From Alphaproteobacteria bacterium (GTDB lineage: Bacteria; Pseudomonadota; Alphaproteobacteria; UBA7887), in the NCBI GenBank assembly GCA_965200095.1, contig OZ241350.1, positions 1,334,853-1,398,852 of the forward strand: a stretch of 64,000 nt of DNA, in the 5' to 3' direction. Under the pieces are notes generated by a model that was given only the letters and a program-made list of their open reading frames with translations, was not told where the DNA came from and did not search any database. This document shows positions 745 to 42,091 of this stretch, one piece after another (positions within the stretch are counted from its first letter, which is position 1; every line of letters starts with the position of its first letter). Both the position numbers and the translations under genes were made by a program.

Positions 745-753
745 GCCCACGCG

Positions 754-2725: not shown

Positions 2726-2726
2726 G

Positions 2727-3554: not shown

Positions 3555-3557
3555 ATC

Positions 3558-7613: not shown

Positions 7614-7624
7614 GGCGGGCGCGC

Positions 7625-8617
7625 TCAGGGCACGGCTATGCGATCGAACAATTGCCGGAGGATGTCCTCCACCGACATCTCCGCCGCCTCGGCCTCGTAG
7701 CTGGCGAGCACGCGATGGCGCAGGATGTCGGGGCCGATGGACTTCACGTCCTGCGGCGTGACGTAGCCCCGGCCGCGGATGAAGGCCAGGGCCCGCGAGG
7801 CGAGCGCGAGGTAGATCGACGCGCGCGGCGAGGCGCCGAAGTCGACGAAGCGCGCCAGGTCCTCCAGGCCGTGCGCCGCCGGATCGCGCGTCGCGAACAC
7901 CAGGTCGACGATGTAGTTCCTGATCTTGTCGTCGATATAGATGTCGTCCACCACCCGCCGCGCCGCGAGGATCGCCGCCGTGTCCGCCACGGGGGGGACC
8001 GCCTCCTCGGGCGCCGTGGTCGCCATGCGGTCCAGTATCTCCAGCTCCTCGTCGCGGGCGGGGTAGCCGATGCGCAGTTTGAGCATGAAGCGGTCGGTCT
8101 GCGCCTCGGGCAGCGGATAGGTGCCTTCCTGTTCGAGGGGGTTCTGGGTGGCGAGCACGAGGAAGGGCTGCGGCAGCGCGAAGCTCTCCTCGCCGATGGT
8201 CACCTGGTTCTCCTGCATGGCCTCGAGCAGGGCGCTCTGCACCTTGGCGGGCGCCCGGTTGATCTCGTCGGCGAGGACCAGATTGGCGAAGACGGGTCCC
8301 TTGCGCACCCGGAATTCGCCCGACTGCGGCTGGTAGATGAGGGTCCCCACCAGGTCCGCCGGCAGCAGGTCGGGGGTGAACTGGATGCGCTGGCAGTGGC
8401 AGTCGAGCGCCTGGGCGAGCGCCGTCGCGGCGCGCGTTTTCGCCAGGCCCGGCGCGCCCTCTATGAGCACGTGACCGTTGGCGAGCAGCCCGACGAGCAG
8501 GCGTTCGAGCATGTATTTCTGGCCGACGACGGTGCGCCCGAGCGCATTCGTCAGCCGTTCGACGAACGCCCCCTGTTCGCGGACGCGCGCGTCGATTTCC
8601 CCCACGTCAAGCGGCAT
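7625..8617 (-). CDS. moxR: MoxR-family AAA+ ATPase
   Basis: Walker A 'GAPGLAKT', 'QFTPDLLPADLVGT', 330 aa. First gene of the operon. Confidence 0.9.
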   Translation of the reverse strand: MPLDVGEIDARVREQGAFVERLTNALGRTVVGQKYMLERLLVGLLANGHVLIEGAPGLAKTRAATALAQALDCHCQRIQFTPDLLPADLVGTLIYQPQSGEFRVRKGPVFANLVLADEINRAPAKVQSALLEAMQENQVTIGEESFALPQPFLVLATQNPLEQEGTYPLPEAQTDRFMLKLRIGYPARDEELEILDRMATTAPEEAVPPVADTAAILAARRVVDDIYIDDKIRNYIVDLVFATRDPAAHGLEDLARFVDFGASPRASIYLALASRALAFIRGRGYVTPQDVKSIGPDILRHRVLASYEAEAAEMSVEDILRQLFDRIAVP

Positions 8618-8746
8618 GGCGTCTCGCAGACGATGATGAAGAGGTCTGTCGCGGCGGCTTCTGTCGCATGTCCTATAGCATGACGGCCGGGGCGCATACA
8701 GGCGAAAGCGCCCGTGCGTCCGCGAGGCCGCGGCGAGGCCGCGCTC

Positions 8747-8775
8747 TTGACGTCCGGCGCCGGCCTCGCTACAGT
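8747..8775 (+). promoter_or_regulatory. Sigma70-type promoter for NHLP precursor 1: -35 TTGACG, 17-nt spacer, -10 TACAGT
   Basis: TTGACG at 8747-8752 and TACAGT at 8770-8775. The downstream 5' UTR carries the hairpin GGAGAGGAAGCCTCTCC (8787-8803) and an SD GGGAGGA at 8819-8825. Confidence 0.6.
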
Positions 8776-8832
8776 GCGACCCGCTTGGAGAGGAAGCCTC
8801 TCCGCAGACGGAAAATTCGGGAGGACGCCGCG

Positions 8833-9156
8833 ATGAGCGAGTCTGCGCTCCGCGCGATATCGGACGCCTGGCATGGGGATGCGGACTTCCGCGCCGCGGT
8901 GGAAGAGAACGCGAAAGCGGCGCTGGCGTCGAAAGGGCTGGAAATCCACGGGTCGACCGAAGTGAGCGTGGTCGTGGACACCGAAGACACGGCGTACTTC
9001 GTGTTCCCGCCGGACCCGAACGAGACTCTGTCCGACATTACGCTCGACGGCGTCTCGGGCGGGACCTCCTCCTGTTGGCAGCACTTCCAGCAGATGCAGC
9101 AGTTGATGAATGAACCCTGCTGGTTTCCCGGAACCGGGCCGACGGATCGGGGTTGA
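8833..9156 (+). CDS. NHLP (nitrile-hydratase-like leader peptide) family RiPP precursor 1; core TSSCWQHFQQMQQLMNEPCWFPGTGPTDRG
   Basis: Leader 'MSESALRAISDAWHGDADFRAAVEENAKAALASKGLEIHGSTEVSVVVDTEDTAYFVFPPDPNETLSDITLDGVSGG' has the NHLP blocks (AWxD..F..., VxVVxxT...y.V.PP.P, LSD..LD.VSGG) and ends in a GG cleavage motif. 107 aa. The ORF-track N-extension (8668) is rejected in favour of the ATG with an SD. Confidence 0.85.
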   Translation: MSESALRAISDAWHGDADFRAAVEENAKAALASKGLEIHGSTEVSVVVDTEDTAYFVFPPDPNETLSDITLDGVSGGTSSCWQHFQQMQQLMNEPCWFPGTGPTDRG

Positions 9157-9380
9157 TGTCGGCGGTCGAGGACACGGGGACACGGGGCGGCGCGCCGTAG
9201 CGTCCGCGGCCCCGGCGAACGGTTCGGTCTTGCCGCGACGCTGCGGGCTCCCTGCGGTCGTTCCCCGGAGCGCCGGCGGACGGCCCGCTCCCGGGGGGCC
9301 GTGTCCGTCGTCGCCATGGGAAGCGCCGGATGCGAACGCTCCGGCTTGCCGGCGGCCCCGCGCCGCGCTATTGTCGCCGC

Positions 9381-9635
9381 ATGACCGTCGCCGATATCCC
9401 GGCCGGTTTCGATACGCTCGCCGCGACCCGCGATCTCGAGGCGGCCGGCGTCGAACGCCGCGCCGGCCTGGCCACGAAGACCGATCTGGACAACCTCGAA
9501 GCGCGGGTGAACACACGCTTCGCGGAACTCGAAGCGCGGATGTTCAAGACCGCCATCTCCATCGTGCTGGCGCAAACCGCGTTGACCGTCGGCTTGATCT
9601 TCGGGTTGCTCAAGCCGTTCGGAGTCGCGCCATGA
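9381..9635 (+). CDS. DUF1640-like tail-anchored coiled-coil protein, paralog A (84 aa, one 11-residue repeat)
   Basis: 'MTVADIPAGFDTLAATRDLEAAG...LATKTDLDNLEARVNTRFAELEARM' plus a C-terminal TM 'ISIVLAQTALTVGLIFGLL'. Fits the 'FDTL..a..L.aAG...LATKaDL..LE' DUF1640 pattern. Putative leaderless promoter (TTGCCG..17..TATTGT) ends about 6 nt before the ATG. Confidence 0.6.
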   Translation: MTVADIPAGFDTLAATRDLEAAGVERRAGLATKTDLDNLEARVNTRFAELEARMFKTAISIVLAQTALTVGLIFGLLKPFGVAP

Positions 9636-9955
9636 ACACGGCGACGTTCGACGCTCATGCGGCCGTCGAGGCGATCGCCGACACCGTGCGCGTCGCCGTG
9701 TCCGAAGGCGTCGCCACGAAGACGGACATCGCCGCCCTTGACGCGAATCGCCGCACTCAAGGCGGACCTCTACCGCGCCTTGTGGATACGGGGCGCCGGC
9801 GTCGTCGCCCGCGCCGGGCTCGACGCCCCGGGGGCCGCGCGCCGTCGGGAGGGCGGGGGTGCGGCGGCGAATTTCACCGGCCCGCCCCCGATCGGGGCAA
9901 TCGCGTTCGCCCCGGCTTGCAGGCGGCCCCGCGCCGCGCTATCGTCGCCGCATGA
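9632..9955 (+). pseudogene. Frameshifted/deleted remnant of a second small DUF1640-like gene (ancestral form ends ...ALKADLYRALRIQGAGLVTVMVGIEFFG)
   Basis: ATG overlaps the paralog A stop (ATGA). Relative to the intact 3' copy at 11144-11282 there is a 2-nt deletion (gacgcgaaGAtcgcc -> gacgcgaatcgcc) and a ~45-nt deletion removing the IEFFG* C-terminus. Confidence 0.4.
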
Positions 9956-10266
9956 CCGTCGCCGACATCCCGGCCGGCTTCGATACGCTCGCCGCAACCC
10001 GCGACCTTGAGGCGGCCGATATCGAACGCCGCCATGCCGAAGCCGTTGTTGCGGTCGTGCGCGCAAGCCGCGCCGGCCTGGCCACGAAGGCCGACCTCGA
10101 CAACCTCGAAGCGCGGGTGAACGGACGCTTCGCGGAACTCGAAGGGCGGATGAACACGCGCTTCGCAGAACTCGAAGCGCGGATGCTCAAGGCCGCCATC
10201 TCCATCGTGCTGGCGCAAACCGCGTTGACCTTCGGGTTGCTCAAATTGCTCGGAGTCGCGCCATGA
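9952..10266 (+). CDS. DUF1640-like tail-anchored coiled-coil protein, paralog B (104 aa, two 11-residue repeats)
   Basis: Same N-terminus and upstream 40 nt as paralogs A and C. Repeats 'EARVNGRFAEL EGRMNTRFAEL' then a TM. Confidence 0.6.
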   Translation: MTVADIPAGFDTLAATRDLEAADIERRHAEAVVAVVRASRAGLATKADLDNLEARVNGRFAELEGRMNTRFAELEARMLKAAISIVLAQTALTFGLLKLLGVAP

Positions 10267-10324
10267 GCACGGCGACCTTCGACACTCATGCGGCCCTCGG
10301 GGCGCTCACCCGCCCGGCGTCGCC

Positions 10325-11140
10325 GCGAAGGAGCGTGTGAAGAAATTGGATGCCTCTCACAAATAACGGTGGAGACGCCGACAATACTTCGTCATTCCCG
10401 CGAAAGAGCGTGTGAAGAAATCGAACAGCGTTACAAGTACTCGTCATTCCCGCGAAAGCGGGAATCTCTTTGCGGCGTTTCCGTAAGAAAAACCGGGCCG
10501 ACATTGCGGGCGGGCGCCTCCGGATTCCCGCTTTCGCGGGAATGACGAAGTATTATTCGATGAGTATTGTCTTTTACGGCGCCGATACTTCGGAGAACCG
10601 GCCGTCACAATGAGAGCCGCCCGATTTCTTCACACGCTCGAAAGCGGGAATCTATCGCGGCGTTTCCGCAAGGAAAACCGGGTCGGTATAGCGGACGGTC
10701 ACCCCCGGATTCCCGCTTTCGAGTGTGTGAAGAAATCGAACAGCGTTACAGGTACTTGTCATTCCCGCGAAAGCGGGAATCTCTTTGCGGCGTTTCCGTA
10801 AGAAAAACCGGGCCGACATTGCGGACGACCGCCTCCGGATTCCCGCTTTCGCGGGAATGACGAAGTATTATTCGAATGACGAAGTATTATTCGGTGGATA
10901 TTGTCTTTTACGGCGCCGATACCTCGGCGATCCGGCCGTCACGATGACAGCCGCCCGGTTTCTTCACACGCTCGAAAGCGGGAATCCGGGGGCGGTCGTC
11001 CACAATATCGGCGCGGTTATTCTTACGGAAACGCCGTAATGACGAAGTATTATTCGATGGGTATTGTCTTTTACAATGCCGATACCTCGGCGATCCGTCC
11101 GTCACGATGACAGCCGCCCGGTTTCTTCACACGCTCGAAG
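10325..11140. repeat. Array of REP-like palindromic units (core ATTCCCGCGAAAGCGGGAAT flanked by GACGAAGTA / TACTTCGTC) with spacer modules
   Basis: Many copies of 'tcgtcattcccgcgaaagcgggaatc' and its inverse 'ggattcccgctttcgcgggaatgacga' occur at irregular spacing. The ORFs predicted inside are translations of the repeats. Confidence 0.75.
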
Positions 11141-11403
11141 GCGGGCCTTGCCGCCCTGCGCGCCGACATCGCCGCCCTTGACGCGAAGATCGCCGCACTC
11201 AAGGCCGACCTCTACCGCGCCTTGCGGATACAGGGCGCCGGTCTCGTCACCGTCATGGTGGGGATCGAGTTCTTCGGATAGCCCGGCGTCGCAGCCCGCG
11301 CCGGGCTCGACGCCCCGGGGGCCGCGCGCCGTCGGGAGGACGGGGGCGCGGCGGCGAATTTCACGAACCCGCCGCTGACCGGGACAATCGCGTTCGCCAC
11401 GGC

Positions 11404-12803
11404 TGTCGAGAACAATCGGAATTGACCGGTTTAGGTACCAAACGAGTTGACCGCTTCGGTTTGGCCCGTGTTCCGGCTTCCGAGCCGGCGGCCGCCGGCT
11501 CGGAAGCCGGAACACGGGCTGGCCGCGTCGAAGCGGGTTACGCGGCTTCCTCCCTCTCGCCTTCGATGAGCCTTCCTTCCCTGTCGTAATCCGCCAGCCG
11601 GCGCGGGCCGGCGAAGACCGCCAGACCGCCATCGGGATACTCGTGCACCCGGACCCGGCTCTTCACATAGTGGCGCCGATGCATGTCCGGCGGGATCGAA
11701 AGCGTCAGACGCTTGTAGCGCACCGTGTTGTCGTTCCCCACAACCCGGTCCTCCTGCACGCACAAGATGTCCGCAAGCGCCCCCGCGCCCGCCCACGGCA
11801 CGAACGCCGAACCCTCGCCTTCCGCCGGAACCGCAAACCGCGCGTTGTGCGAAGGCACAAACGCATCCCGCAGAAAGCGGTTCGCCGACACCATATCCTC
11901 GACCCCGGCAAGGCGCAGTTCCTGAGGCAAACGCTGTTGCAGCGTCCCGAACATGCGCTCCGACCGGCCCCGCGCTTGCGGCGTGTAGGCCGCGATCAAA
12001 TCGATGCCCAGATGCGCAAGCGCCCGACCGACCTGCGTCGGCTTCTCCTTGTCCACCTTCCCCCCGGCCTCCGGCGTGCGCCAGTAGTGGCTCCCGCGAT
12101 CCGCATAGAGCGAGCAGAACAGGCCATGCGCCTCAATCACCTCGCGCAAAGCCGAAAAACTGCTCATCGTCCCCTCCTCGGACACGAAAAACGCCGAGTA
12201 AATCTCGCTCGTCGCATCGTCCATCGTCACAATCAGGTCCCACCAACGCCCCGAAACCCACTCATGCCGCGACCCATCCCGGTGCAGCATCATCCCGGGC
12301 AACGCACGACGCGCGCGCTTGCGACGATGCGCCCCGCGACGCGGGGCCGCGCGAACCCGGCCATGCGCCTGCAGCGTCAGACGAACCCAGTTGTAACTCC
12401 GACGCACGCCGTGCTCCGACACCAGCTTCTCGTGGAAGTGCTTCGACGTGAAATCCCAGTAGCGCGTGTCGAACAAATCAAGCACACGCGCAACCTCGTC
12501 AACCGCAGCGCGACGCGACGACACACGACCGAGACGGCGGTCGTAAAGCCCCTCCGCTCCCTCCGCCTCATACCGGTCACGCCAGCGCCGGAACGTCCGC
12601 TCGCTGATGCCCAGAACCTCCGCAGCCTCCAGCTGGCTCAACGCGCCGCCGCGCGTTCGTCCGTAAACCTCCTCAAACCTCATAAGGCGTAGTCCCCGAT
12701 CCTGCTCCGTCCGACCCATCCCCCAGCCCTCCACAGAACAAAAGGGGCATGATCCGGACAGAACGCCTGGTACCTACACCGGACAAATCACATGTTAGCG
12801 ACA
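11404..12803 (-). mobile_element. IS481-family-like insertion sequence, copy 1 (1400 bp), flanked by a 6-bp direct repeat CACGGC
   Basis: Imperfect terminal IRs cTGTCGagAACA ... TGTTagCGACA start with TGT. Target duplications CACGGC at 11398-11403 and 12804-12809. Carries a 398-aa HTH + rve (DDE) transposase. Confidence 0.7.
11538..12734 (-). CDS. DDE transposase (HTH + integrase-core, IS481-like)
   Basis: N-terminal HTH 'LSQLEAAEVLGISERTFRRWRDRYEAEGAEGL'. 398 aa, identical to the copy at 13522..14718. Confidence 0.7.
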   Translation of the reverse strand: MEGWGMGRTEQDRGLRLMRFEEVYGRTRGGALSQLEAAEVLGISERTFRRWRDRYEAEGAEGLYDRRLGRVSSRRAAVDEVARVLDLFDTRYWDFTSKHFHEKLVSEHGVRRSYNWVRLTLQAHGRVRAAPRRGAHRRKRARRALPGMMLHRDGSRHEWVSGRWWDLIVTMDDATSEIYSAFFVSEEGTMSSFSALREVIEAHGLFCSLYADRGSHYWRTPEAGGKVDKEKPTQVGRALAHLGIDLIAAYTPQARGRSERMFGTLQQRLPQELRLAGVEDMVSANRFLRDAFVPSHNARFAVPAEGEGSAFVPWAGAGALADILCVQEDRVVGNDNTVRYKRLTLSIPPDMHRRHYVKSRVRVHEYPDGGLAVFAGPRRLADYDREGRLIEGEREEAA

Positions 12804-12844
12804 CACGGCTTGCAGGCGGCCCCGCGCCGGGTTATCGTCGCCGC

Positions 12845-13303
12845 ATGACTGTCGCCGACATCCCGGCCGGCTTCGATACGCTCGCCGCAACCCGCGATCT
12901 CGAAGCGGCCGGTATCGAACGCCGCCACGCCGAAGCCGTCGTCGCGGTCGTGCGCGCCAGCCGCGCCGGCCTGGCCACGAAGGCCGATCTCGACAACCTC
13001 GAAGCGCGGATGGGCGGACGTTTCGCAGAACTCCAGGCGCAGATGGACGGGCGCTTCGCAGAACTCCAGGCGCAGATGGACGGGCGCCTCGCGGAATTCG
13101 AAGCGCGGGTGAACGGGCGTTTCGCGGAATCCGATGAGCGGGTGAACGGGCGCTTCGCGGAATCCGATGAGCGGGTGAACGGGCGCTTCGCGGAACTCGA
13201 AGCGCGGATGCTCAAGGTCGCCATCTCCATCGTGCTGGCGCAGACCGCGTTGACCGTCGGCCTGACCTTCGGGTTGCTCAAGCTGTTCGGAGGCGCGCCA
13301 TGA
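12845..13303 (+). CDS. DUF1640-like tail-anchored coiled-coil protein, paralog C (152 aa, six 11-residue repeats)
   Basis: '...EARMGGRFAEL QAQMDGRFAEL QAQMDGRLAEF EARVNGRFAES DERVNGRFAES DERVNGRFAEL' then a TM. Lies between the two direct IS copies. Confidence 0.6.
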   Translation: MTVADIPAGFDTLAATRDLEAAGIERRHAEAVVAVVRASRAGLATKADLDNLEARMGGRFAELQAQMDGRFAELQAQMDGRLAEFEARVNGRFAESDERVNGRFAESDERVNGRFAELEARMLKVAISIVLAQTALTVGLTFGLLKLFGGAP

Positions 13304-13387
13304 ACACGGCGACCTTCGACACTCATGCGGCCCTCAGGGCGCTCACCCGCGCCGGCTGAAACCGCGGGTTCGCCTCCGGCAAGCCTC

Positions 13388-14787
13388 TGTCGAGAACAAT
13401 CGGAATTGACCGGTTTAGGTACCAAACGAGTTGACCGCTTCGGTTTGGCCCGTGTTCCGGCTTCCGAGCCGGCGGCCGCCGGCTCGGAAGCCGGAACACG
13501 GGCTGGCCGCGTCGAAGCGGGTTACGCGGCTTCCTCCCTCTCGCCTTCGATGAGCCTTCCTTCCCTGTCGTAATCCGCCAGCCGGCGCGGGCCGGCGAAG
13601 ACCGCCAGACCGCCATCGGGATACTCGTGCACCCGGACCCGGCTCTTCACATAGTGGCGCCGATGCATGTCCGGCGGGATCGAAAGCGTCAGACGCTTGT
13701 AGCGCACCGTGTTGTCGTTCCCCACAACCCGGTCCTCCTGCACGCACAAGATGTCCGCAAGCGCCCCCGCGCCCGCCCACGGCACGAACGCCGAACCCTC
13801 GCCTTCCGCCGGAACCGCAAACCGCGCGTTGTGCGAAGGCACAAACGCATCCCGCAGAAAGCGGTTCGCCGACACCATATCCTCGACCCCGGCAAGGCGC
13901 AGTTCCTGAGGCAAACGCTGTTGCAGCGTCCCGAACATGCGCTCCGACCGGCCCCGCGCTTGCGGCGTGTAGGCCGCGATCAAATCGATGCCCAGATGCG
14001 CAAGCGCCCGACCGACCTGCGTCGGCTTCTCCTTGTCCACCTTCCCCCCGGCCTCCGGCGTGCGCCAGTAGTGGCTCCCGCGATCCGCATAGAGCGAGCA
14101 GAACAGGCCATGCGCCTCAATCACCTCGCGCAAAGCCGAAAAACTGCTCATCGTCCCCTCCTCGGACACGAAAAACGCCGAGTAAATCTCGCTCGTCGCA
14201 TCGTCCATCGTCACAATCAGGTCCCACCAACGCCCCGAAACCCACTCATGCCGCGACCCATCCCGGTGCAGCATCATCCCGGGCAACGCACGACGCGCGC
14301 GCTTGCGACGATGCGCCCCGCGACGCGGGGCCGCGCGAACCCGGCCATGCGCCTGCAGCGTCAGACGAACCCAGTTGTAACTCCGACCCACGCCGTGCTC
14401 CGACACCAGCTTCTCGTGGAAGTGCTTCGACGTGAAATCCCAGTAGCGCGTGTCGAACAAATCAAGCACACGCGCAACCTCGTCAACCGCAGCGCGACGC
14501 GACGACACACGACCGAGACGGCGGTCGTAAAGCCCCTCCGCTCCCTCCGCCTCATACCGGTCACGCCAGCGCCGGAACGTCCGCTCGCTGATGCCCAGAA
14601 CCTCCGCAGCCTCCAGCTGGCTCAACGCGCCGCCGCGCGTTCGTCCGTAAACCTCCTCAAACCTCATAAGGCGTAGTCCCCGATCCTGCTCCGTCCGACC
14701 CATCCCCCAGCCCTCCACAGAACAAAAGGGGCATGATCCGGACAGAACGCCTGGTACCTACACCGGACAAATCACATGTTAGCGACA
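13388..14787 (-). mobile_element. IS481-family-like insertion sequence, copy 2 (100% identical to copy 1), flanked by a-GCCTC / c-GCCTC
   Basis: The 1984-bp offset from copy 1 is conserved throughout, with identical ends. 5/6-bp direct repeat; the surrounding target shows a GCCTCCGGCAA tandem duplication. Confidence 0.7.
13522..14718 (-). CDS. DDE transposase (IS481-like), copy 2
   Basis: Differs at one residue (G vs R) from the ORF at 11538..12734. Confidence 0.7.
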   Translation of the reverse strand: MEGWGMGRTEQDRGLRLMRFEEVYGRTRGGALSQLEAAEVLGISERTFRRWRDRYEAEGAEGLYDRRLGRVSSRRAAVDEVARVLDLFDTRYWDFTSKHFHEKLVSEHGVGRSYNWVRLTLQAHGRVRAAPRRGAHRRKRARRALPGMMLHRDGSRHEWVSGRWWDLIVTMDDATSEIYSAFFVSEEGTMSSFSALREVIEAHGLFCSLYADRGSHYWRTPEAGGKVDKEKPTQVGRALAHLGIDLIAAYTPQARGRSERMFGTLQQRLPQELRLAGVEDMVSANRFLRDAFVPSHNARFAVPAEGEGSAFVPWAGAGALADILCVQEDRVVGNDNTVRYKRLTLSIPPDMHRRHYVKSRVRVHEYPDGGLAVFAGPRRLADYDREGRLIEGEREEAA

Positions 14788-14804
14788 CGCCTCCGGCAAG
14801 CCTC

Positions 14805-14833
14805 TTGACTTTCGGCGCCCGCTTTGCTATAAG
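14805..14833 (+). promoter_or_regulatory. Sigma70-type promoter for NHLP precursor 2: -35 TTGACT, 17-nt spacer, -10 TATAAG
   Basis: TTGACT at 14805-14810 and TATAAG at 14828-14833, 18 bp beyond the IS copy 2 end. The 5' UTR has the hairpin GGGGATGCAGCATCCCC (14846-14862) and an SD GAGGAGG (14876-14882). Confidence 0.6.
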
Positions 14834-14890
14834 CCCTCTCGTATCGGGGATGCAGCATCCCCTGAGGGACAAAGTGAGGAGGATGGCGTC

Positions 14891-15214
14891 ATGAACGAGT
14901 CCCCGCTCCACGCGATATCGAACATCTACCATGCGGATGCCGGCTTCCGCGCCGAGGTGGAAGAGGACGCGAAGTCCGCGCTGGCGACGAAGGGGCTGGA
15001 AATCCACGGACCGGCCGAGGTGAGCGTGGCCGTGGACACCGAAGACACGGTGCATGTGGTGTTCCCGCCGGACCCGAACATGGCGCTCCCCGACGGCGCG
15101 CTGGACGCCGTCTCGGGCGGCTGGGGGGGGTACCCCAACGGCTACACCTACAACGGCAACTACTACTCGACCCGCCAGCTCTCCGCCGGCGGCATGTACG
15201 ACTCTTCGCGCTAA
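14891..15214 (+). CDS. NHLP-family RiPP precursor 2; core WGGYPNGYTYNGNYYSTRQLSAGGMYDSSR
   Basis: Leader 'MNESPLHAISNIYHADAGFRAEVEEDAKSALATKGLEIHGPAEVSVAVDTEDTVHVVFPPDPNMALPDGALDAVSGG' is about 60% identical to the precursor 1 leader. The core is completely different. 107 aa. Confidence 0.85.
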   Translation: MNESPLHAISNIYHADAGFRAEVEEDAKSALATKGLEIHGPAEVSVAVDTEDTVHVVFPPDPNMALPDGALDAVSGGWGGYPNGYTYNGNYYSTRQLSAGGMYDSSR

Positions 15215-15233
15215 CCGACTGCGCGAGAGATGA

Positions 15234-15266
15234 GGCGGCGCGCCCGGGGCGCGCCGCCTTTTCGTT
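15234..15266 (+). terminator. Rho-independent terminator after precursor 2 (GGCGGCGCGCC-cgg-GGCGCGCCGCC + TTTTCGTT)
   Basis: Perfect 11-bp GC stem followed by a T-run, 20 nt after the stop codon. Confidence 0.7.
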
Positions 15267-15423
15267 GTCTGCGGCGCCGCGCGCCGTTTCCTTGCGGGCC
15301 TGTCGCGGTGTTCGCCGCTCCCGATCCGCGAATGGCGGGACGCGCGCCGGAGACCGTTCCCCGCGCCGCTCTCCCGCGATGCTAACCGGCAGCGCGCGCG
15401 ACCGCGGCGTCGTCGAGCGTCCG

Positions 15424-17661
15424 ATGCTTGCGCCGCATCTCCGGTTTTCCCCCGTCGGCGACGGCGCGGCGCTGCTGGTTTCCGAAAGCTTCAACCGGCT
15501 CCTCGAGGGGCGGCTCTGGCCCGCCCTGTTGCCGCTGCTCGACGGGACGCGCTCGCGGGCGGAGATCGCTGCGGCGCTCGCCGAGAGCCATCCGGCGCTC
15601 GAGACGCAAACGGCGCTGGTCGCGCTGGCGACGCAAGGCGTGGTCGTTTCCGCCGAATTCTCGATGGACCGCGCCGCGGCCGCGTTCTGGTCGCGCCTCG
15701 GCGCATCGCCGCGTCTCGCCGAAGAACGGCTGGGCGCGGCGCGGGTTTCGGTCTCCGGCCCCGAACCGCACGCCGAAAATTTCGCCCGGCGGCTGGAAGC
15801 GGCGGGGCTGACGGCAACCCGCGCGACTCCGACCCTGGCGGCCGTCGTCGCGCCGGATTTTCTCGACGACTCCCTGGCGGAGGACAACCGGCGGCGGGTC
15901 GCCGGCGGGCCGCCCTGGCTCGCGATCGCGCCGGACGGCGCGCCGCCGCTGTTCGGCCCCGTTTTTCGTCCCGACGGAGACGGGCCGTGCCTGGCGTGCC
16001 TGACGCAGCGGCTTTCCGCCAACCGCGAAGCCGAGGAGTTCCTGCGCGCCGCCGGCGACGGCGGAGACCCGGTCCGCCCCCGCGCGCCCGGCGGTTTCGT
16101 CGACGCCGCGCTGGGCCTTGCGGCGACCGCGGTCGCGGTCTGGACCGTGCTGGGGGAACGATCGCCGCTGCACCGGTGCGCGGTCTCGCTGGACGCGGCC
16201 GGGCTGGAGAGCCGCCGCCACCCGGTGACGCGGCGCCCGCAATGCCCCGTTTGCGGCGACCCGGCTCTCAGGCGCCCCGGCCGCGCGTCGGCGCCGGTGC
16301 GGCTACGGCCGAGCCCCGCTCCGGCGCGCGGCGACGGCGGACCGCGCGCCGTGCCGCCGGAGGAAACCTTGCGCCGGTGGGGCCATCTCGCCGACCCGGT
16401 AAGCGGCGTCGCGGCGGCGTTCGGACCGCTCGCGCCGGAGGGCGACCCGTGGCTGCACGTCTTCCGATCGTCCGGCAATTCGGCGCTGCGCACGCACGAT
16501 CTGCGCCAGCGGCTCCACAGTCTGCGCGCCTGGTGCCTCGGCAAGGGCGCGACGGCGGCGCAGGCGCAGGCGAGCGCCCTGTGCGAGGCGGTGGAGCGCC
16601 GCTGCGGCGCGTTTCACGGCGACGAGGTCCGCCGCCGCGCGCGCTTCGTCGATTTCCCCGCCGGCGACGCGCTGGCGCCGAACGACGCGCAGCTGTTCAG
16701 CGACCGGCAGCTGGCGGACGCGGCCGCGCTCAACGCGTCCGAACCGCATTTCAACCGCATCCCGCCGCGTTTCGACCCGAAGGCCGAAATGGACTGGTCG
16801 CCGGTGTGGTCGCTGACGGCCGAACGCCGCCGCTGGCTGCCGACGCAGCTGCTCTGGTTCGCCGCGCCGGCGGAGGACGGAGTTGTCCACTGCACGGCGG
16901 ACTCCAACGGATGCGCGGCCGGCAACACACTGGAAGAAGCGGTGCTGCAAGGGTTTCTGGAGCTCGTGGAGCGCGACGCCTTCGCGTGCTGGTGGTATAA
17001 TTGCGTCGCGCTGCCGGGGGCGGACCCGGGCGGGTTCGGCGACCCGTGGCTCAGCCGGGCGCCGGCGCATTATCGCGCGCGCGGTCGCGACATGTGGCTG
17101 CTGGACGCAACGCACGATCTCGGCGTCCCGGTCTTCGTCGCGGTCTCGCGACGCACCGACAAGGAGGCGGAGGACATCATCTACGCGGCGGGGGCGCATC
17201 TCGACCCGCGCGTGGCGGCGCGGCGCGCGGTGTGCGAGCTGAACCAGTATCTCGCCGTAACCGGCGGCGCGAAGGCCGACGGCTCCGGCTATCTGAGCGA
17301 CGACCCGGAGTCGCTGCGACGGTGGCGGACGATGCGGCTGGCGGACCGGCCGTGGCTCGCCCCCGCGCCGGGAGCGCCGCGCCACGCCGCCGCCGCCGGG
17401 CCGGTCGCGGACGCGACGGACACGCTGCGCGCCCTCGAACATTGCCGCGAGGCGGTCGAGTCCCGCGGAATGGAGGTTCTCGTGCTCGACCAGACGCGGC
17501 CCGACATCGGGCTGCCGGTGGCGCGAACGATCGTTCCGGGGTTGCGCCATTTCTGGCCGCGCTTCGCGCCGGGGCGCCTCTACGACGTCCCGACAGCGAT
17601 GGGCTGGCGAGACGCTCCGGCGCGCGAAGAGGAGCTGAACCCGGTTCCGGTGTCGATCTGA
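15424..17661 (+). CDS. Fused E1-like/YcaO azoline-forming cyclodehydratase (PatD/TruD-like TOMM heterocyclase)
   Basis: N-terminus 'MLAPHLRFSPVG...LLPLLDGTRSRAEIAAAL' aligns with the PatD start (MQPTALQIKPHFH...ILPLLNGQYTLEQIVEKL). YcaO ATP/Mg motifs 'SALCEAVERR' and 'GFLELVERDAFACWWYN'. The C-terminus 'LNPVPVSI' has a PxPxP-type motif. Start chosen at ATG 15424; the TTG at 15265 lies inside the terminator. Confidence 0.8.
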   Translation: MLAPHLRFSPVGDGAALLVSESFNRLLEGRLWPALLPLLDGTRSRAEIAAALAESHPALETQTALVALATQGVVVSAEFSMDRAAAAFWSRLGASPRLAEERLGAARVSVSGPEPHAENFARRLEAAGLTATRATPTLAAVVAPDFLDDSLAEDNRRRVAGGPPWLAIAPDGAPPLFGPVFRPDGDGPCLACLTQRLSANREAEEFLRAAGDGGDPVRPRAPGGFVDAALGLAATAVAVWTVLGERSPLHRCAVSLDAAGLESRRHPVTRRPQCPVCGDPALRRPGRASAPVRLRPSPAPARGDGGPRAVPPEETLRRWGHLADPVSGVAAAFGPLAPEGDPWLHVFRSSGNSALRTHDLRQRLHSLRAWCLGKGATAAQAQASALCEAVERRCGAFHGDEVRRRARFVDFPAGDALAPNDAQLFSDRQLADAAALNASEPHFNRIPPRFDPKAEMDWSPVWSLTAERRRWLPTQLLWFAAPAEDGVVHCTADSNGCAAGNTLEEAVLQGFLELVERDAFACWWYNCVALPGADPGGFGDPWLSRAPAHYRARGRDMWLLDATHDLGVPVFVAVSRRTDKEAEDIIYAAGAHLDPRVAARRAVCELNQYLAVTGGAKADGSGYLSDDPESLRRWRTMRLADRPWLAPAPGAPRHAAAAGPVADATDTLRALEHCREAVESRGMEVLVLDQTRPDIGLPVARTIVPGLRHFWPRFAPGRLYDVPTAMGWRDAPAREEELNPVPVSI

Positions 17662-17761
17662 CGGCGGAACCGGCTCATCCCGGGGCGCGCGACGGGCAAG
17701 CCGGGTTGACGCTCCGGCGGCGAGCCGGTATCGTGGCGGCGGCTTTGCCGGGGAGAGCGAG

Positions 17762-18391
17762 ATGCCGAAGATCAACCCGTTCGTCGGTCTGTTCGTGGCC
17801 ATCGCGGCGCTGAACGCGAGCATGTTCGTCTGGCTGCGCGCCGACATCGCCGAAGTCCGCGAGGAAATCGCCGCCGTCCGCGGGGATGTCGCCGGCAATG
17901 GCGAGCGTCTGGCGCGCATCGAGACCGTGCAGGCCGAACATGGCGAGCGTCTGGCGCGCATCGAGACCGTGCAGACCGAGCATGGCGAGCGCCTGACGCG
18001 CATCGAGACCGTGCAGGCCGAGCATGGCGAGCGCCTGACGCGCCTCGAGGCCGGGCAGGCGGAACTGCGCGACCGCATGGCCGAGGTCGAAATCGGGCAG
18101 GCGGAGATGCGCGCCGATATCGCCGAGCTCGGCGAGCGCGCGATTCGCGTCGAAACCGGGCAGGCGGAATTGCGCGACCGCATGACCGGGGTCGAAGCCG
18201 GACTTGCGGGGTTGCGCGCCGATATCGCCGAAGTCGGCGAGCGTGTGGTTCGCGTCGAAGCCGGGCAAACCATGACCGGCGAGCGCATGGCGCGCATCGA
18301 AGGCACGGTCGCCGGCGCGCTCGGGCGCCCGTTTCCGGGCGCGGATCGCGTCGCACGGGCGCCCGAGGCGGGCGCAAACGCGGCGAACTGA
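17762..18391 (+). CDS. N-terminally membrane-anchored tandem-repeat coiled-coil protein (4 x 14-aa 'GERLARIETVQAEH' + 21-aa repeats)
   Basis: TM 'PFVGLFVAIAALNASMFVWL' followed by near-perfect tandem repeats. Upstream are TTGACG..17..TATCGT and an SD GGGGAGAG. Confidence 0.55.
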   Translation: MPKINPFVGLFVAIAALNASMFVWLRADIAEVREEIAAVRGDVAGNGERLARIETVQAEHGERLARIETVQTEHGERLTRIETVQAEHGERLTRLEAGQAELRDRMAEVEIGQAEMRADIAELGERAIRVETGQAELRDRMTGVEAGLAGLRADIAEVGERVVRVEAGQTMTGERMARIEGTVAGALGRPFPGADRVARAPEAGANAAN

Positions 18392-18494: not shown

Positions 18495-19793
18495 TTTCGT
18501 ATGCGAGACCTTTGCATAACCCGTTTCGCCTGCGGCAGGATCGCGTTCCCGATGCTTTACGACGTTTTCGAACCTGCCGTCGGAGCATGACAGTGAGTGA
18601 CGGAATTACGGGAATCCGCCCTCTGCATCGATAATTCCCGCTTTCGAGCATATGAAGAGACCGGATGTTTCTCACTATGGCGGTCGGAGCGCCGAAGGGT
18701 TCGGCGCGGCAAAAGACAACAATTCTCTAATAATACTCGTCATTCCCGCGAAAGAGTGTGTGAAGAAATCGAAAGGCCGCACTACTCTTCGTCATTCCCG
18801 CGAAAGCGGGAATCTGTCGCGGCGTTTCCGTAATAAAAACGGGCCGATATAGCGGACGGCCGCCTCCGGATTCCCGCTTTCGAGCATGTGAAGAAACCGG
18901 GCGTCTCCGATCGTGACAGCCGGATCGCCGAGGCACCGGCATTGTAAAAGACAATACCCATCGAATAATACTTCGTCATTCCCGAGAAAGAGCGTGTGAA
19001 GAAATTGAGCGCCTCTCACTATGGCGGCTGGACAACTCAAGAACCGCCATAGTGAAAGGCGGTAACCCCCAGATAATACCTCGTCATTCCCGCGAAAGCG
19101 GGAATCCGGAGGCGGACGTCCGCTATATCGGCCCGCTTTATTATGGAAACGTCGCAACGGATTCCCGCTTTCGCGGGAATGACGAGTATTTGTAAGGCCT
19201 TTCAATTTCCTCACACGCTCTTTCGCGGGAATGACGAAGTACCATTCGGTGGTTATCGTCTTTTACAAATGCCGTTACTTCGGCGATCCGGCTGTCACGA
19301 TTCGGAAACGCCCGACTTCTTCACACGCGTGAAAGCGGGAATCTGTCGCGGCGTTTCCGTAATAAAAACGGGCCGGTATAGTGGACGGTCGCCTCCGGAT
19401 TCTCGCTTTCGAGCGTGCGAAGAAATCGAGAGCCGCTACTATTCTTCGTCATTCCCGCGAAAGCGGGAATCTGCTTGCGGCGTTTCCGTAAGAAAAACCG
19501 CGCCGATATTGCGGACGGCCGCCTCCGGATTCCCGCTTTCGCGGGAATGACGAGTATTTGTAAAGCCGTCCGATTTCTTCACATGCTCTCGCGGGAATGA
19601 CGAGTGTTTGTAAGGCTGTTCAATTTCCTCGCACGCTCTTTCGCGGAACGGATATGTCCGGACAACGACGAGCCGGATCGAATCGAGGCGCCCGGTCATC
19701 CCGTCGACGCCTCGCGACATCGCCGGAAGTCGAGCCGAACAGGCAACCGCTCGCGACCGGCCCCCGAAAAAAATCCGGACCTCGGCAGAGGTC
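18495..19793. mobile_element. MITE-like non-autonomous element (about 1.3 kb): 5' module GAGACCTTTGCATAAC..., internal REP-unit array, 3' module ...GGCAGAGGTC
   Basis: Same 5' (~125 nt) and 3' (~180 nt) modules as the element at 26897..27617. The terminal inverted repeats here are degenerate. Confidence 0.55.
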
Positions 19794-23159: not shown

Positions 23160-23422
23160 CGGCGCCGGCCATCAAGCGATCCGGTTCACCGAAAACCGGC
23201 GCTCCGACCGTACAAATACTCGTCATTCCCGCGAAAGCGGGAATCCGGAGGCGGTCGTCCGCTATATTGGCCCGTTTTTTTATTACGGAACCCCCGCAAC
23301 GGATTCCCGCTTTCGCGGGAATGACGAAGAGTAGTAGGGCTTTTCAATTTCTTCACACACTCTATTCGCGGAACGAATATGTCCGAACAAACGACAAGCC
23401 GGCTCGAATCGAGGCGCCCCGG
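23160..23422. repeat. Truncated copy of the REP-array/MITE 3' module, abutting the aspS stop
   Basis: REP units plus 'cgcggaacgaatatgtccgaacaaacgacaagccggctcgaatcgaggcgccc', homologous to 19640-19700 and 27450-27520. Confidence 0.6.
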
Positions 23423-41721: not shown

Positions 41722-41783
41722 GATGCCGTCCTCTTTATGTTCCGGCGTCGCGCGAGGTTTGGCCCCGGGCGAACCGTTCCCTA

Positions 41784-41808
41784 CCCCCCCCCCCCCCCCC
41801 CCCCCCCC
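41784..41808. repeat. Homopolymeric C(25)/G(25) tract 63-87 bp upstream of the autotransporter start codon
   Basis: Uninterrupted run of 25 C on the plus strand, on the promoter side of the minus-strand gene. Confidence 0.95.
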
Positions 41809-42091
41809 GGTCAAGGCCTGAAATTTTTTTTACGGGCGCAATGGCCTTGAATACGGCGCCCGGCGAAGCTCCGGCCTTGCCGCGATGCTGCGGATCCCCC
41901 GGCGATCGTTCCCGGGAGCAAACCTGCCCTCGCGGATGCGGCGGGCGTCTCGCCGGGATTTTCGTAGTTCGCGCTACGCGCGCATGCCGGCGAGACGCCG
42001 GCGCTCCCGGGAGGGCGCGTCCGGGAGCGCTTGACCGGGCGGCGGGGCGGGGCTACCACCCGGCGTTCGCGATATTCGGGGAGGCGGCGCC

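What the first reader, a model, noticed from the sequence alone, without database searches (positions are those of the whole stretch)
8620..18391. Undescribed RiPP locus: two NHLP-leader precursors plus a fused E1/YcaO heterocyclase, with no dehydrogenase, C39 transporter or dedicated protease in the 64 kb
Two 107-aa peptides carry the full NHLP leader signature and a GG cleavage site, but have unrelated 30-aa cores: core 1 is Cys/Ser/Thr- and Gln-rich, core 2 is a Tyr/Gly/Asn-rich peptide with no Cys. Precursor 2 is followed, across a strong terminator, by a PatD/TruD-like fused cyclodehydratase whose YcaO half keeps the ATP/Mg motifs and the C-terminal PxPxP-type tail. That makes azoline installation (thiazoline from the Cys of core 1, oxazoline/methyloxazoline from Ser/Thr of both cores) the predicted chemistry. 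The absence of a SagB-type dehydrogenase predicts azolines rather than azoles. The absence of a C39-ABC exporter is atypical for GG-leader peptides. The partner set and core sequences do not match any characterised TOMM or cyanobactin cluster I know.
Basis: partly seen in the sequence, partly recalled or inferred. Interest (0 to 1): 0.85.

Follow-up and report, generated by a model that had tools for sequence, protein, structure and literature searches.

The report
Sponge-symbiont NHLP peptide / YcaO heterocyclase locus
This is a real but small gene set for making modified peptides, consisting of two nitrile-hydratase-leader precursor peptides and a LynD-type heterocycle-forming enzyme; it is a new member of the already described "srp/mpr"-type proteusin systems common in marine-sponge bacteria, not an undescribed kind of system.

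Summary
Two 107-aa NHLP-type precursors (8833-9156 and 14891-15214) and a 760-aa fused RRE/E1-like/YcaO cyclodehydratase (15379-17661) are real, intact and conserved. None of the usual partner genes lies in the 64 kb.

The claim that it is undescribed does not hold. The enzyme aligns end to end with LynD and TruD (E about 1e-138). It belongs to a family of more than 1,000 proteins, found almost only in sponge-symbiont MAGs from many phyla. About half of the 80 fetched genome loci sit beside ...EEQLEAISAGLCCCW precursors, which marks the published srp system (SrpE/SrpC). The window enzyme falls in a separate, well-supported subclade (100/100 bootstrap). Its members carry 1-8 precursors with a PPDPN...LxxxxL...GG leader and Gly/Arg/Tyr/Trp-rich cores.

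The P2 core is conserved across relatives. Its penultimate residue is always Ser, Cys or Thr, so that is the likely azoline site.

Two identical IS copies, absent from a 99 %-identical contig, separate the two precursors. In a close relative the precursors and the enzyme lie 1.9 Mb apart. The same genome probably also encodes a second YcaO next to a ThcOx-type oxidase. The system is therefore dispersed, and the "azolines only" prediction is unsafe.

Verdict: new member of a known kind, moderate interest.

The parts
8747..8775 (+). Promoter-like site for precursor 1 (TTGACG-17-TACAGT)
   Evidence: Consensus scan and sequence. This is a pattern match only.
8833..9156 (+). Precursor 1 (107 aa). 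NHLP-type leader of 77 aa ending in LSDITLDGVSGG, then a 30-aa core TSSCWQHFQQMQQLMNEPCWFPGTGPTDRG.
   Evidence: TIGR03793 E 6e-12, 45.2 bits, below the cut-off of 50.9. RBS GGGAGGA. Orthologues P0136 and P0132 keep the motif ...C-x-x-P-G-T-G-P-T-D-R-G. The L001 copy is 99 % identical.
11403..12804 (-). ISNCY-family insertion sequence, copy 1 (transposase 11538-12734). An interruption, not a functional part.
   Evidence: NF033594, 358 bits. Absent from L001, with about 7 bp of overlap at the junction.
13387..14788 (-). ISNCY-family insertion sequence, copy 2 (transposase 13522-14718). It ends 17 bp upstream of the P2 -35 box.
   Evidence: 1401 of 1402 nt identical to copy 1. Absent from L001. 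Accompanied by loss of about 240 bp that are present in L001 at 9166-9410.
14805..14833 (+). Promoter-like site for precursor 2 (TTGACT-17-TATAAG)
   Evidence: Read from the sequence. Not reported by the scan, because the last base of the -10 hexamer is G.
14891..15214 (+). Precursor 2 (107 aa). NHLP-type leader ending in LPDGALDAVSGG, then a 30-aa core WGGYPNGYTYNGNYYSTRQLSAGGMYDSSR.
   Evidence: TIGR03793 E 5e-8. PDB 8TB1 MprE7 E 4e-5. At least 10 core orthologues. dN/dS 0.35-0.41 overall, and about 0.2 in the core against L082.
15232..15270 (+). Intrinsic terminator/attenuator between precursor 2 and the enzyme gene
   Evidence: 13-bp stem with 11 G-C pairs, followed by a T-run. Conserved in L084, where synteny with the window ends just after it.
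15379..17661 (+). Fused cyclodehydratase (760 aa): N-terminal RRE-like winged helix, E1-like domain with a CxxC...CxxC site, and a YcaO domain
   Evidence: TIGR03882 118 bits, TIGR03604 255 bits, Pfam YcaO 308 bits. LynD 4V1T E 4e-138 over residues 2-743. The start codon is placed by the conserved N-terminus in alignment A1 and by 100 % identity to the 760-aa P0158.
15913..16410 (+). E1-like / 'TOMM precursor leader peptide-binding' domain of the enzyme
   Evidence: The TIGR03882 match covers residues 217-382 of ORF 15265-17661. Cys189/192/274/277 (numbered on the translation of 15424-17661) are invariant.
16540..17649 (+). YcaO (ATP-dependent amide-activating) domain of the enzyme
   Evidence: The TIGR03604 match covers residues 426-795 of the ORF. 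The motifs SALCEAVER, GNTLEEAVLQGFLELVERD, RAVCELNQ and LDQTRPDIG are shared with LynD and TruD and are invariant in 33 homologues.

Best explanation
The locus is a minimal proteusin-type (NHLP-leader) RiPP system in a high-GC, probably sponge-associated bacterium.

Shown:
- Two paralogous precursor genes exist. Their leaders are 81 % identical at the DNA level and their cores are unrelated.
- Each precursor has its own promoter-like site.
- P2 is followed by a terminator and then by a 760-aa LynD/TruD/SrpC-type enzyme.

Inferred mechanism:
- The structured NHLP leader docks its LxxxxL motif (LSDITL in P1, LPDGAL in P2) on the N-terminal RRE of the enzyme.
- The YcaO domain uses ATP/Mg to O-phosphorylate a backbone amide. 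It then cyclodehydrates a small number of Cys/Ser/Thr residues to thiazoline or (methyl)oxazoline, with a loss of 18 Da each.
- The best-supported site in P2 is the penultimate residue of the conserved C-terminal motif SAGG[MR]YD[ST][SCT]R. This residue is Ser, Cys or Thr in every orthologue and paralogue.
- The best-supported site in P1 is the conserved Cys before the xxPGxG tail (Cys19), plus Cys4.
- The leader is then removed after the GG. The Trp/Tyr/Gly/Arg-rich peptide is exported by proteins encoded elsewhere.

The system works as a dispersed set of genes, not a closed cluster. The enzyme can act in trans on precursors scattered around the chromosome. A second YcaO with a ThcOx-type oxidase, elsewhere in the genome, may oxidise azolines to azoles.
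For: - Enzyme family scores are above the curated cut-offs.
- The enzyme aligns over its full length to LynD, TruD and MusD. The RRE region, the Zn-site cysteines and every YcaO nucleotide-binding block are conserved.
- The leaders are homologous to the NHLP family and to the solved MprE7 leader. LxxxxL and GG align. The role of that motif in YcaO and halogenase binding has been shown experimentally for MprE7/MprC and SrpE/SrpI (PMC12455567, PMC10858898).
- In relatives whose enzyme is 65-87 % identical, 1-8 precursors of the same leader type sit directly beside the YcaO gene (7 upstream and 1 downstream in L082).
- The P2 core is conserved across these genomes. The penultimate residue is S/S/T/T/C/C/C/S/C/C. 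The core evolves under purifying selection, with w about 0.2 against L082.
- The window subclade is monophyletic in 100 of 100 bootstraps.
- For the dispersed organisation: L084 and L089 lie on one 2.83-Mb contig. There is an orphan P1 orthologue in L085. L090 has a YcaO2-oxidase pair with no precursor within 10 kb on either side.
Against: - The cores of this subclade are not enriched in cyclisable residues: Cys 1.5 %, Ser 8.5 %, Thr 5.2 %.
- One array member in L088 has no Cys, Ser or Thr at all.
- No leader peptidase or exporter was found near any member.
- The P1 leader shows dN/dS of 1 or more against its orphan orthologue, though the substitution counts are low.
- Two IS insertions show that the region is in flux.
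- The precursor HMM scores are below the curated NHLP cut-off.
- There is no biochemical or expression evidence for this particular locus.
Confidence: 0.7

Rival explanations
1. The window shows only part of a larger pathway. The same genome carries a second fused YcaO with an adjacent ThcOx-type FMN oxidase. Peptidase and exporter genes are presumably elsewhere too. The mature products would then be azole-containing or more heavily tailored peptides, not plain azolines. This extends the best explanation and does not exclude it.
For: - P0158 is 100 % identical to the window enzyme and lies on a 3,274,215-bp contig.
- P0041, a paralogue at 58 % identity, lies on a contig of the same length.
- P0040, 99 % identical to P0041, is followed 17 bp later by a 478-aa Nitroreductase/ThcOx protein, and there is no precursor within 10 kb.
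- The sister clade of the window enzyme regularly has this oxidase next to the YcaO.
Against: - That both enzymes are in one genome rests only on equal contig length.
- Whether the oxidase accepts P1 or P2 products is unknown.
- MprC/MprD are reported to be selective for their own leaders (PMC10286304).
- None of the five other loci of the window subclade has an oxidase nearby.
Confidence: 0.35
2. The locus is a decaying remnant. It would be an srp-like cluster that has lost its oxidase, transporters and most of its precursors, is being broken up by IS elements and rearrangements, and no longer makes a product.
For: - Two recent IS insertions and a deletion of about 240 bp lie between the precursors.
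- No partner genes are present.
- The synteny break in a close relative falls exactly between P2 and the enzyme.
- The P1 leader has dN/dS of 1 or more.
Against: - All three ORFs are intact and have RBSs and promoter-like sites.
- The IS copies spare both promoters.
- The enzyme keeps every invariant residue of the family.
- The enzyme persists at 90 % identity or more in at least 11 assemblies.
- P2 is under purifying selection and is seen in 22 sequence variants and assemblies.
- The relative with separated genes keeps all of them intact.
Confidence: 0.1
3. The YcaO of this subclade performs chemistry other than azoline formation on these Cys-poor, aromatic-rich cores. Examples would be amidine or macroamidine formation, or other backbone activation.
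For: The cores are not enriched in Cys/Ser/Thr, and one has none of these residues. From general knowledge, YcaO enzymes are known to make thioamides and amidines as well.
Against: - The enzyme is a full-length LynD/TruD-type heterocyclase with RRE and E1-like domains.
- No TfuA or amidohydrolase-type partner was seen among the genes called in the related loci.
- The one position that is always Ser, Cys or Thr in the conserved P2 motif fits heterocyclisation.
Confidence: 0.05

Closest known systems
srp BGCs (sponge-derived RiPP proteusins: SrpE precursor, SrpC YcaO, SrpI Trp-6 brominase; Nguyen et al. JACS 2021, as described in PMC10858898, PMC10286304 and bioRxiv 10.1101/2023.06.09.544420)
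   Same: - An NHLP leader with an LxxxxL motif and a small-residue-Gly cleavage site.
- A fused RRE/E1/YcaO enzyme of the same protein family. It is 46-56 % identical to the YcaOs outside the window's clade, most of which sit beside ...EEQLEAISAGLCCCW or related CC-type precursors.
- No oxidase gene among the families conserved in the LCCCW-type loci fetched here; the SrpC product is described as thiazolines.
- Sponge-microbiome habitat and spread across phyla.
   Different: - Cores are 30 aa and aromatic/Gly-rich, in place of the 5-aa LCCCW.
- The leader subtype is PPDPN...GG, not NLTEEQL...AG.
- There is no brominase, ABC/HlyD, MMPL, desaturase-fusion, NHLP-cyclase-like or 372-aa partner.
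- The enzyme is in a separate clade, with 100/100 bootstrap support.
mpr BGC of a methanotroph (MprE1-E10, MprC YcaO, MprD FMN oxidase; Nguyen et al. ACS Chem Biol 2022, as described in PMC12455567 and PMC10286304)
   Same: - Several NHLP precursors with dissimilar cores are served by one fused, RRE-containing YcaO.
- P2 aligns to the solved MprE7 leader (8TB1), including LxxxxL and GG.
   Different: - No adjacent MprD-type oxidase.
- Only two precursors here, although relatives have up to eight.
- The cores are poor in Cys.
- The precursors are dispersed, not arrayed.
Cyanobactin heterocyclases LynD / TruD / PatD, and MusD (PDB 4V1T, 4BS9, 7U58)
   Same: - The same three-domain architecture over the whole length (E 4e-138, 7e-136 and 1e-122).
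- The same catalytic blocks and Zn-site cysteines.
- The same type of C-terminal tail, NP-x-P.
   Different: - The substrates are NHLP proteusin-type peptides, not PatE-type.
- No PatA/PatG proteases, so macrocyclisation is not predicted.
NHLP/Nif11 TOMM systems defined bioinformatically (Haft, Basu and Mitchell 2010; TIGR03793, TIGR03882, TIGR03604, NHPM ABC/HlyD models)
   Same: The domain families of the enzyme are met. The precursors belong to the NHLP clan.
   Different: The precursors score below the TIGR03793 cut-off. There is no NHPM-type ABC/HlyD export set in the window.

Membership tests
Fused TOMM/cyanobactin-type cyclodehydratase (TIGR03882 + TIGR03604; LynD/TruD/PatD/SrpC/MprC) | YcaO domain scoring above the curated cut-offs | tested here: met
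   TIGR03604 255.2 bits against a cut-off of 219.25. PF02624 308 bits.
Fused TOMM/cyanobactin-type cyclodehydratase (TIGR03882 + TIGR03604; LynD/TruD/PatD/SrpC/MprC) | E1-like 'leader peptide-binding' domain fused N-terminally, with the CxxC...CxxC site | tested here: met
   TIGR03882 117.8 bits against a cut-off of 36.9. Cys189/192/274/277 are invariant in 33 homologues.
Fused TOMM/cyanobactin-type cyclodehydratase (TIGR03882 + TIGR03604; LynD/TruD/PatD/SrpC/MprC) | N-terminal RRE (winged helix) that binds the leader | tested here: met
   Residues 2-90 align with the LynD and TruD RRE region within a single end-to-end alignment. The Pfam PqqD hit is only weak, E 0.067. Binding itself was not tested.
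Fused TOMM/cyanobactin-type cyclodehydratase (TIGR03882 + TIGR03604; LynD/TruD/PatD/SrpC/MprC) | Conserved ATP/Mg-binding residues of the YcaO domain | tested here: met
   The blocks S-x3-E-x2-E-R (SALCEAVER), E-x2-E-R-D (ELVERD) and R-x3-E-x-N-Q are identical to LynD and TruD and invariant in alignment A1. Assigning these blocks to ATP/Mg binding rests on my recollection of the E. coli YcaO and LynD structures.
Fused TOMM/cyanobactin-type cyclodehydratase (TIGR03882 + TIGR03604; LynD/TruD/PatD/SrpC/MprC) | Proline-rich PxPxP C-terminus | tested here: inconclusive
   The tail is ...LNPVPVSI, with two of the three prolines. The family consensus is ...LNPVxVFI, and LynD has ...MNPTPM...
Fused TOMM/cyanobactin-type cyclodehydratase (TIGR03882 + TIGR03604; LynD/TruD/PatD/SrpC/MprC) | ATP-dependent azoline formation on a leader-bearing peptide | not testable with these tools
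   Needs co-expression or an in vitro assay with mass spectrometry.
NHLP leader peptide family (TIGR03793; proteusin precursors) | Score at or above the curated cut-off of TIGR03793 | tested here: not met
   45.2 and 32.6 bits against a cut-off of 50.9. The E-values of 6e-12 and 5e-8 are nevertheless significant.
NHLP leader peptide family (TIGR03793; proteusin precursors) | Homology to nitrile hydratase alpha and to characterised NHLP leaders, with a leader of about 75-85 aa | tested here: met
   PF02979 E 1e-5 for P1. PDB 8TB1 (MprE7) E 4e-5 for P2 over residues 14-78. The leaders are 77 aa.
NHLP leader peptide family (TIGR03793; proteusin precursors) | LxxxxL recognition motif and a Gly-Gly-type cleavage site before a variable core | tested here: met
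   LSDITLDGVSGG and LPDGALDAVSGG. These align with LSDEDLGAVTGG of MprE7.
srp BGC (SrpE/SrpC/SrpI) | SrpE-type precursor: N(L/I)TEEQL motif and LCCCW core | tested here: not met
   The window cores and leader motifs differ. Only two NHLP ORFs were found in the 64 kb.
srp BGC (SrpE/SrpC/SrpI) | YcaO orthologous to SrpC | tested here: not met
   The enzyme is a homologue but is placed in a different clade. It is 46-56 % identical to the 73 YcaOs outside its clade, which include all those beside LCCCW precursors. The split has 100/100 bootstrap support. The SrpC sequence itself was not available. Loci with ...NLTEEQLEAISAGLCCCW (L058, L062) served as a proxy.
srp BGC (SrpE/SrpC/SrpI) | Flavin-dependent Trp brominase SrpI and the usual transporter genes | tested here: not met
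   tblastn with the halogenase, ABC, HlyD and MMPL proteins from srp-type loci gives no hit in the window.
mpr-type proteusin azol(in)e system (MprC/MprD/MprE1-10) | FMN-dependent azoline oxidase next to the YcaO | tested here: not met
   There is no Nitroreductase/ThcOx homologue in the window. One is present beside the paralogous YcaO in L090.
Cyanobactin pathway | PatA/PatG-type subtilisin proteases or macrocyclase, and a PatE-type precursor | tested here: not met
   The only S8 peptidase (1439-2725) belongs to the Bat/MoxR neighbourhood. It stays with the precursors, not with the enzyme, when the two are separated. The precursors are NHLP-type.

The most novel reading that the evidence does not exclude
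The window represents a distinct clade of sponge-symbiont proteusin systems that, as far as the papers I could read show, has not been characterised. It lacks a brominase, an adjacent oxidase and transporters. One LynD-type YcaO serves a dispersed and fast-diversifying set of NHLP precursors. Their cationic Trp/Tyr/Gly/Arg-rich cores carry only one or two azolines. An example is the conserved C-terminal SAGG[MR]YD[ST][SCT]R motif. This would be a new peptide scaffold, organised as a regulon and not as a cluster.
Probability: 0.4. Interest if true: 0.5.

Novelty: new member of a known kind. Interest (0 to 1): 0.38.

Why it matters
Sponge microbiomes are full of srp-like proteusin clusters whose ecological role is unknown. 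This locus shows that the same enzyme family also serves a second precursor class with long, aromatic, Cys-poor cores. It also shows that the enzyme and its precursors can sit megabases apart, so cluster-based genome mining (antiSMASH-style) will undercount or mis-bound such systems. The conserved P2 motif, with its invariant Ser/Cys/Thr position, gives a concrete and testable modification site and predicted product masses. It does not reveal a new enzymology or a new class of system.

Tried and rejected
- A megablast search of the locus against PLSDB plasmids found no match.
- An Rfam scan of the whole window found nothing at gathering thresholds.
- Exact-sequence look-ups of P2, P0041 and P0158 returned nothing on record. 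The window's own genome record and organism name could therefore not be retrieved.
- The two primary papers (JACS 2021 on srp, ACS Chem Biol 2022 on mpr) are not held. The srp and mpr features are taken from later open papers by the same group.
- I considered the three CCDC90-like coiled-coil genes and the 209-aa coiled-coil gene after the enzyme as immunity or export parts. I rejected this because they occur only in the window's own species group (L001, L084/L089) and not in L082, L083 or L088, where the YcaO-precursor link is tightest.
- I considered the S8 peptidase at 1439-2725 as the leader protease. I rejected this because it belongs to the conserved Bat/MoxR block and is not associated with the enzyme in other loci.
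- I considered the two IS copies as a composite transposon carrying the system. I rejected this because they flank only one coiled-coil gene.
- I considered the hexapeptide-repeat (LbH) protein upstream of the precursor arrays in L082 and L083 as a conserved partner. It is absent from the window.

Full report
**1. What is in the sequence**

The window is about 70 % G+C. Within 8620-18391 the + strand carries two 107-aa ORFs.

P1 starts at the internal ATG at 8833 of ORF 8668-9156. It is preceded by a GGGAGGA RBS and a promoter-like TTGACG-17-TACAGT. P2 is 14891-15214. It has GC3 of 0.91, an AGGAGGA RBS and a TTGACT-17-TATAAG. A strong hairpin with a T-run follows at 15232-15260.

The next gene is a 760-aa protein. 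I place its start at the ATG at 15379, not at the TTG at 15265. There are two reasons. The segment L-T-x-A-D-R-G-x-V-E-R-P is conserved in 33 homologues. The 760-aa translation is also 100 % identical to database protein P0158.

The two precursor genes are 81 % identical in DNA over 250 nt of leader, and then diverge completely. This is a duplication in which the core was replaced.

**2. Family tests**

The enzyme passes both NCBIfam models that define fused TOMM cyclodehydratases: TIGR03604 at 255 bits against 219, and TIGR03882 at 118 against 37. It also passes Pfam YcaO at 308 bits.

It aligns from residue 2 to residue 743 with the solved cyanobactin heterocyclases LynD (4V1T, E 4e-138), TruD (4BS9) and MusD (7U58). 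The alignment includes the N-terminal RRE region, the CxxC...CxxC site and all YcaO nucleotide-binding blocks. These residues are invariant in the family alignment. The tail NPVPVSI matches PxPxP only in part.

The precursors hit the NHLP model TIGR03793 with E 6e-12 and 5e-8, but score below its curated cut-off. P2 also matches the solved NHLP leader MprE7 (8TB1, E 4e-5). Its LPDGALDAVSGG aligns with LSDEDLGAVTGG of MprE7. The precursors therefore belong to the NHLP clan but are divergent members.

**3. What is not there, and what else is**

tblastn with 11 partner proteins collected from related loci gives no hit in the 64 kb. The set comprised a ThcOx-type oxidase, a LanM-like protein, two ABC transporters, HlyD, MMPL, a Trp halogenase, a desaturase fusion, an NHLP-cyclase-like protein, a 372-aa protein and an LbH protein.

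Pfam annotation of the remaining ORFs shows housekeeping genes. These include a Bat/MoxR operon, aminoacyl-tRNA synthetases, acyl-CoA metabolism genes, an autotransporter, IMPDH, cobalamin genes, an amidase and RNase E. An iterated profile search (jackhmmer) with the leader finds only the two NHLP ORFs in the window.

Two copies of a 1402-bp ISNCY element lie between P1 and P2, at 11403-12804 and 13387-14788. They differ by one mismatch. Three paralogous small coiled-coil, membrane-anchored genes also lie there. REP-like arrays flank the region.

A metagenome contig that is 98-99 % identical (L001) has the same gene order without the IS copies. P1 and the enzyme are therefore normally about 3 kb apart. 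The second IS ends 17 bp upstream of the P2 -35 box.

**4. Relatives**

The enzyme has more than 1,195 database homologues covering its full length. At least 598 loci occur in species-representative genomes. The 80 I fetched are almost all MAGs whose names or isolate labels point to sponges, such as Porisulfidus, Poriferihabitaceae, Palauibacter, Spongia_Bin9, and the SB06xx, COS4, RHO and IRC bins. They span Alpha- and Gammaproteobacteria, Acidobacteriota, Gemmatimonadota, Nitrospirota, Latescibacterota and Binatia.

In about half of these loci an NHLP precursor ending ...(I/L)TEEQLEA(I/V)SAGLCCCW lies nearby. Others end in LCCCG, RCCC or LSCC. This is the published srp system: an SrpE core of LCCCW, an NLTEEQL motif, the SrpC YcaO that makes three thiazolines, and the SrpI brominase. 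It is reported across phyla in sponge microbiomes and is highly transcribed (PMC10858898, PMC10286304, PMC9426513, PMC11832590, bioRxiv 10.1101/2023.06.09.544420).

The conserved partners in those loci are an ABC transporter, a desaturase fusion, an NHLP-fused cyclase-like protein, MMPL, HlyD, a halogenase and a 372-aa protein with no Pfam match.

**5. Where the window enzyme sits**

In a neighbour-joining tree of 90 enzymes, the window enzyme groups with L001 and four metagenome proteins (P0002-P0005, 65-99 % identity) in 100 of 100 bootstraps. This group plus a sister set (51-60 % identity) is separated from all the others, including every YcaO beside an LCCCW precursor (46-56 % identity), also in 100 of 100 bootstraps.

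The sister set has several PPDPN-type precursors with long Ser/Thr/Ala/Gly/Cys-rich cores. It has a Nitroreductase/ThcOx-type oxidase directly after the YcaO, and sometimes a LanM-like protein as well.

The window subclade has 1-8 precursors beside the YcaO (7 upstream and 1 downstream in L082) and none of these partners. Several of these contigs carry the label PANK22-1. I take this to refer to the sponge metagenomes of Pankey et al. 2022. That is an inference from the label and from the citation of that data set in PMC13083261.

**6. Comparative evidence for function**

The P2 core has clear orthologues in at least ten sequences. They follow the pattern W-G-G-Y-P-N-G-x-T-Y-N-G-x-Y-Y-[ST]-x-x-Q-L-S-A-G-G-[MR]-Y-D-[ST]-[SCT]-R.

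The C-terminal block SAGG[MR]YD[ST][SCT]R also recurs in shorter paralogous cores, for example VGGWGYSREWYSAGGRYDSSR and VQTWTAWESAGGRYDTSR. The penultimate residue is Ser, Cys or Thr in every case. That is the substitution pattern expected at a cyclodehydration site.

P2 evolves with dN/dS of 0.35-0.41. Its core shows about 0.2 against the distant L082 orthologue.

P1-type cores (P0131-P0137) share a first Thr and a Cys followed by xxPGxG. For P1, dN/dS against an orphan orthologue is about 1, although the substitution counts are small.

Across 21 cores of the subclade the composition is Gly 17 %, Arg 9 %, Tyr 8 %, Trp 6 %, and only Cys 1.5 %, Ser 8.5 %, Thr 5.2 %. One core, QRIMYLGKPYPLNIFP, has no cyclisable residue. 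I therefore expect few heterocycles per peptide. I keep a small probability for other chemistry.

**7. Dispersed organisation**

In a close relative that is about 96 % identical in DNA over the Bat-P1-P2 region, homology to the window stops at 15285, just after the P2 terminator. Unrelated genes follow (L084).

The orthologous enzyme (90 % identity or more), together with the window's right-hand neighbours, lies 1.9 Mb away on the same 2.83-Mb contig (L089). A further precursor with the core SCIDCYIPPNNLGSGW is about 8 kb upstream of it.

A P1 orthologue also occurs alone in an unrelated context (L085).

P0041, a paralogous YcaO at 58 % identity, lies on a contig of exactly the same length (3,274,215 bp) as the one carrying the window's enzyme. 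Its 99 %-identical copy is followed by a ThcOx-type oxidase and has no precursor within 10 kb.

The enzyme and its precursors therefore do not need to be adjacent. An oxidase is probably available in the same genome.

**8. Verdict**

The predicted chemistry is well supported by homology, though it is inferred, not shown.

The claim of novelty is not supported. This is the known proteusin/NHLP-plus-fused-YcaO design (srp, mpr), in a divergent clade with a new class of core. I rate it a new member of a known kind, with moderate interest.

The points worth following are:
- the conserved C-terminal motif of the P2 family;
- the Cys-poor, aromatic cores;
- the regulon-like dispersion of the genes.

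Noticed in passing
window 11403-12804 and 13387-14788: Two copies of a 1402-bp ISNCY-family insertion sequence that differ at one position. Each encodes a 398-aa transposase on the - strand. Both are absent from the 99 %-identical contig L001. Copy 1 has about 7 bp of junction overlap. Copy 2 comes with a deletion of about 240 bp that removes an 86-aa CCDC90-like gene.
   Followed up: yes
window ~10290-11150 and ~18560-19650; also ~23211-23371 and ~27076-27616: Arrays of REP/MITE-like repeats built on the palindrome TCATTCCCGCGAAAGCGGGAATC. The first two arrays are inverted relative to each other. They lower local GC to about 0.61-0.63. Copy number differs from L001.
   Followed up: partly
window 9381-9635, 9952-10266, 12845-13303, and 17762-18391: Three tandem paralogues of a small coiled-coil protein with a C-terminal membrane anchor. 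They give a weak PF07798 CCDC90-like hit and carry 33-nt repeat expansions. There is also a 209-aa coiled-coil protein with an N-terminal anchor, 42-nt repeats and a sub-threshold XhlA hit. All are conserved only in the window's own species group. Their function is unknown.
   Followed up: partly
L084 (contig position 2.54 Mb) and L089 (0.65 Mb) of ENA ERZ25068400 ctg22215: A chromosomal rearrangement in a close relative separates the precursors from the YcaO by 1.9 Mb. The breakpoint is at the position equivalent to window ~15285. A Peptidase_M78-like 480-aa gene and a 166-aa gene lie upstream of the relocated enzyme.
   Followed up: partly
L047 8592-9908 (34 loci) and L081 12242-13360 (68 of 82 loci): Two features of canonical srp-type loci stand out. 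One is a 438-aa protein with an N-terminal NHLP-like domain fused to a squalene-hopene-cyclase-like domain. The other is a 372-aa protein with no Pfam match, found immediately after the YcaO. Both are widely conserved. I do not know of a described function for either.
   Followed up: no
L002 5811-6125, L005 6056-6403, L006 8442-8717, L010 5827-6120, L026 9303-9746: Short proteins resembling NHLP leaders or nitrile hydratase alpha that end right after the ...HI(V/L)LP(A/D)P... segment. They have no GG site and no recognisable core. They lie in the oxidase-associated sister loci.
   Followed up: no
L090 10001-13796, and proteins P0041/P0040: A second fused YcaO (58 % identity to the window enzyme) directly followed by a 478-aa Nitroreductase/ThcOx-type oxidase. 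No NHLP precursor lies within 10 kb. It is probably present in the window's genome too, judged by equal contig length.
   Followed up: partly
L082 5961-7016 and L083 6576-7634: A 351-aa protein with two hexapeptide-repeat (left-handed beta-helix) domains lies directly upstream of the precursor arrays in the relatives at 65-67 % identity. It is absent from the window.
   Followed up: no
window 1-1407: An AAA_21 (AbiEii-like ATPase, cut by the window edge) gene paired with a DUF4276 gene. This looks like a small defence-type or toxin-antitoxin-like module.
   Followed up: no
window 1439-8617 (- strand): A Peptidase_S8 gene followed by a Bat-like operon (TPR, two VWA/BatA proteins, a 376-aa protein, DUF58 and a MoxR AAA+ ATPase), immediately upstream of P1. 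It is syntenic with P1 and P2 in L001 and L084, but it does not travel with the YcaO.
   Followed up: partly
window 37645-41814 (- strand): A 1389-aa autotransporter (beta-domain, PF03797), in a segment with lower GC3 than its neighbours.
   Followed up: no
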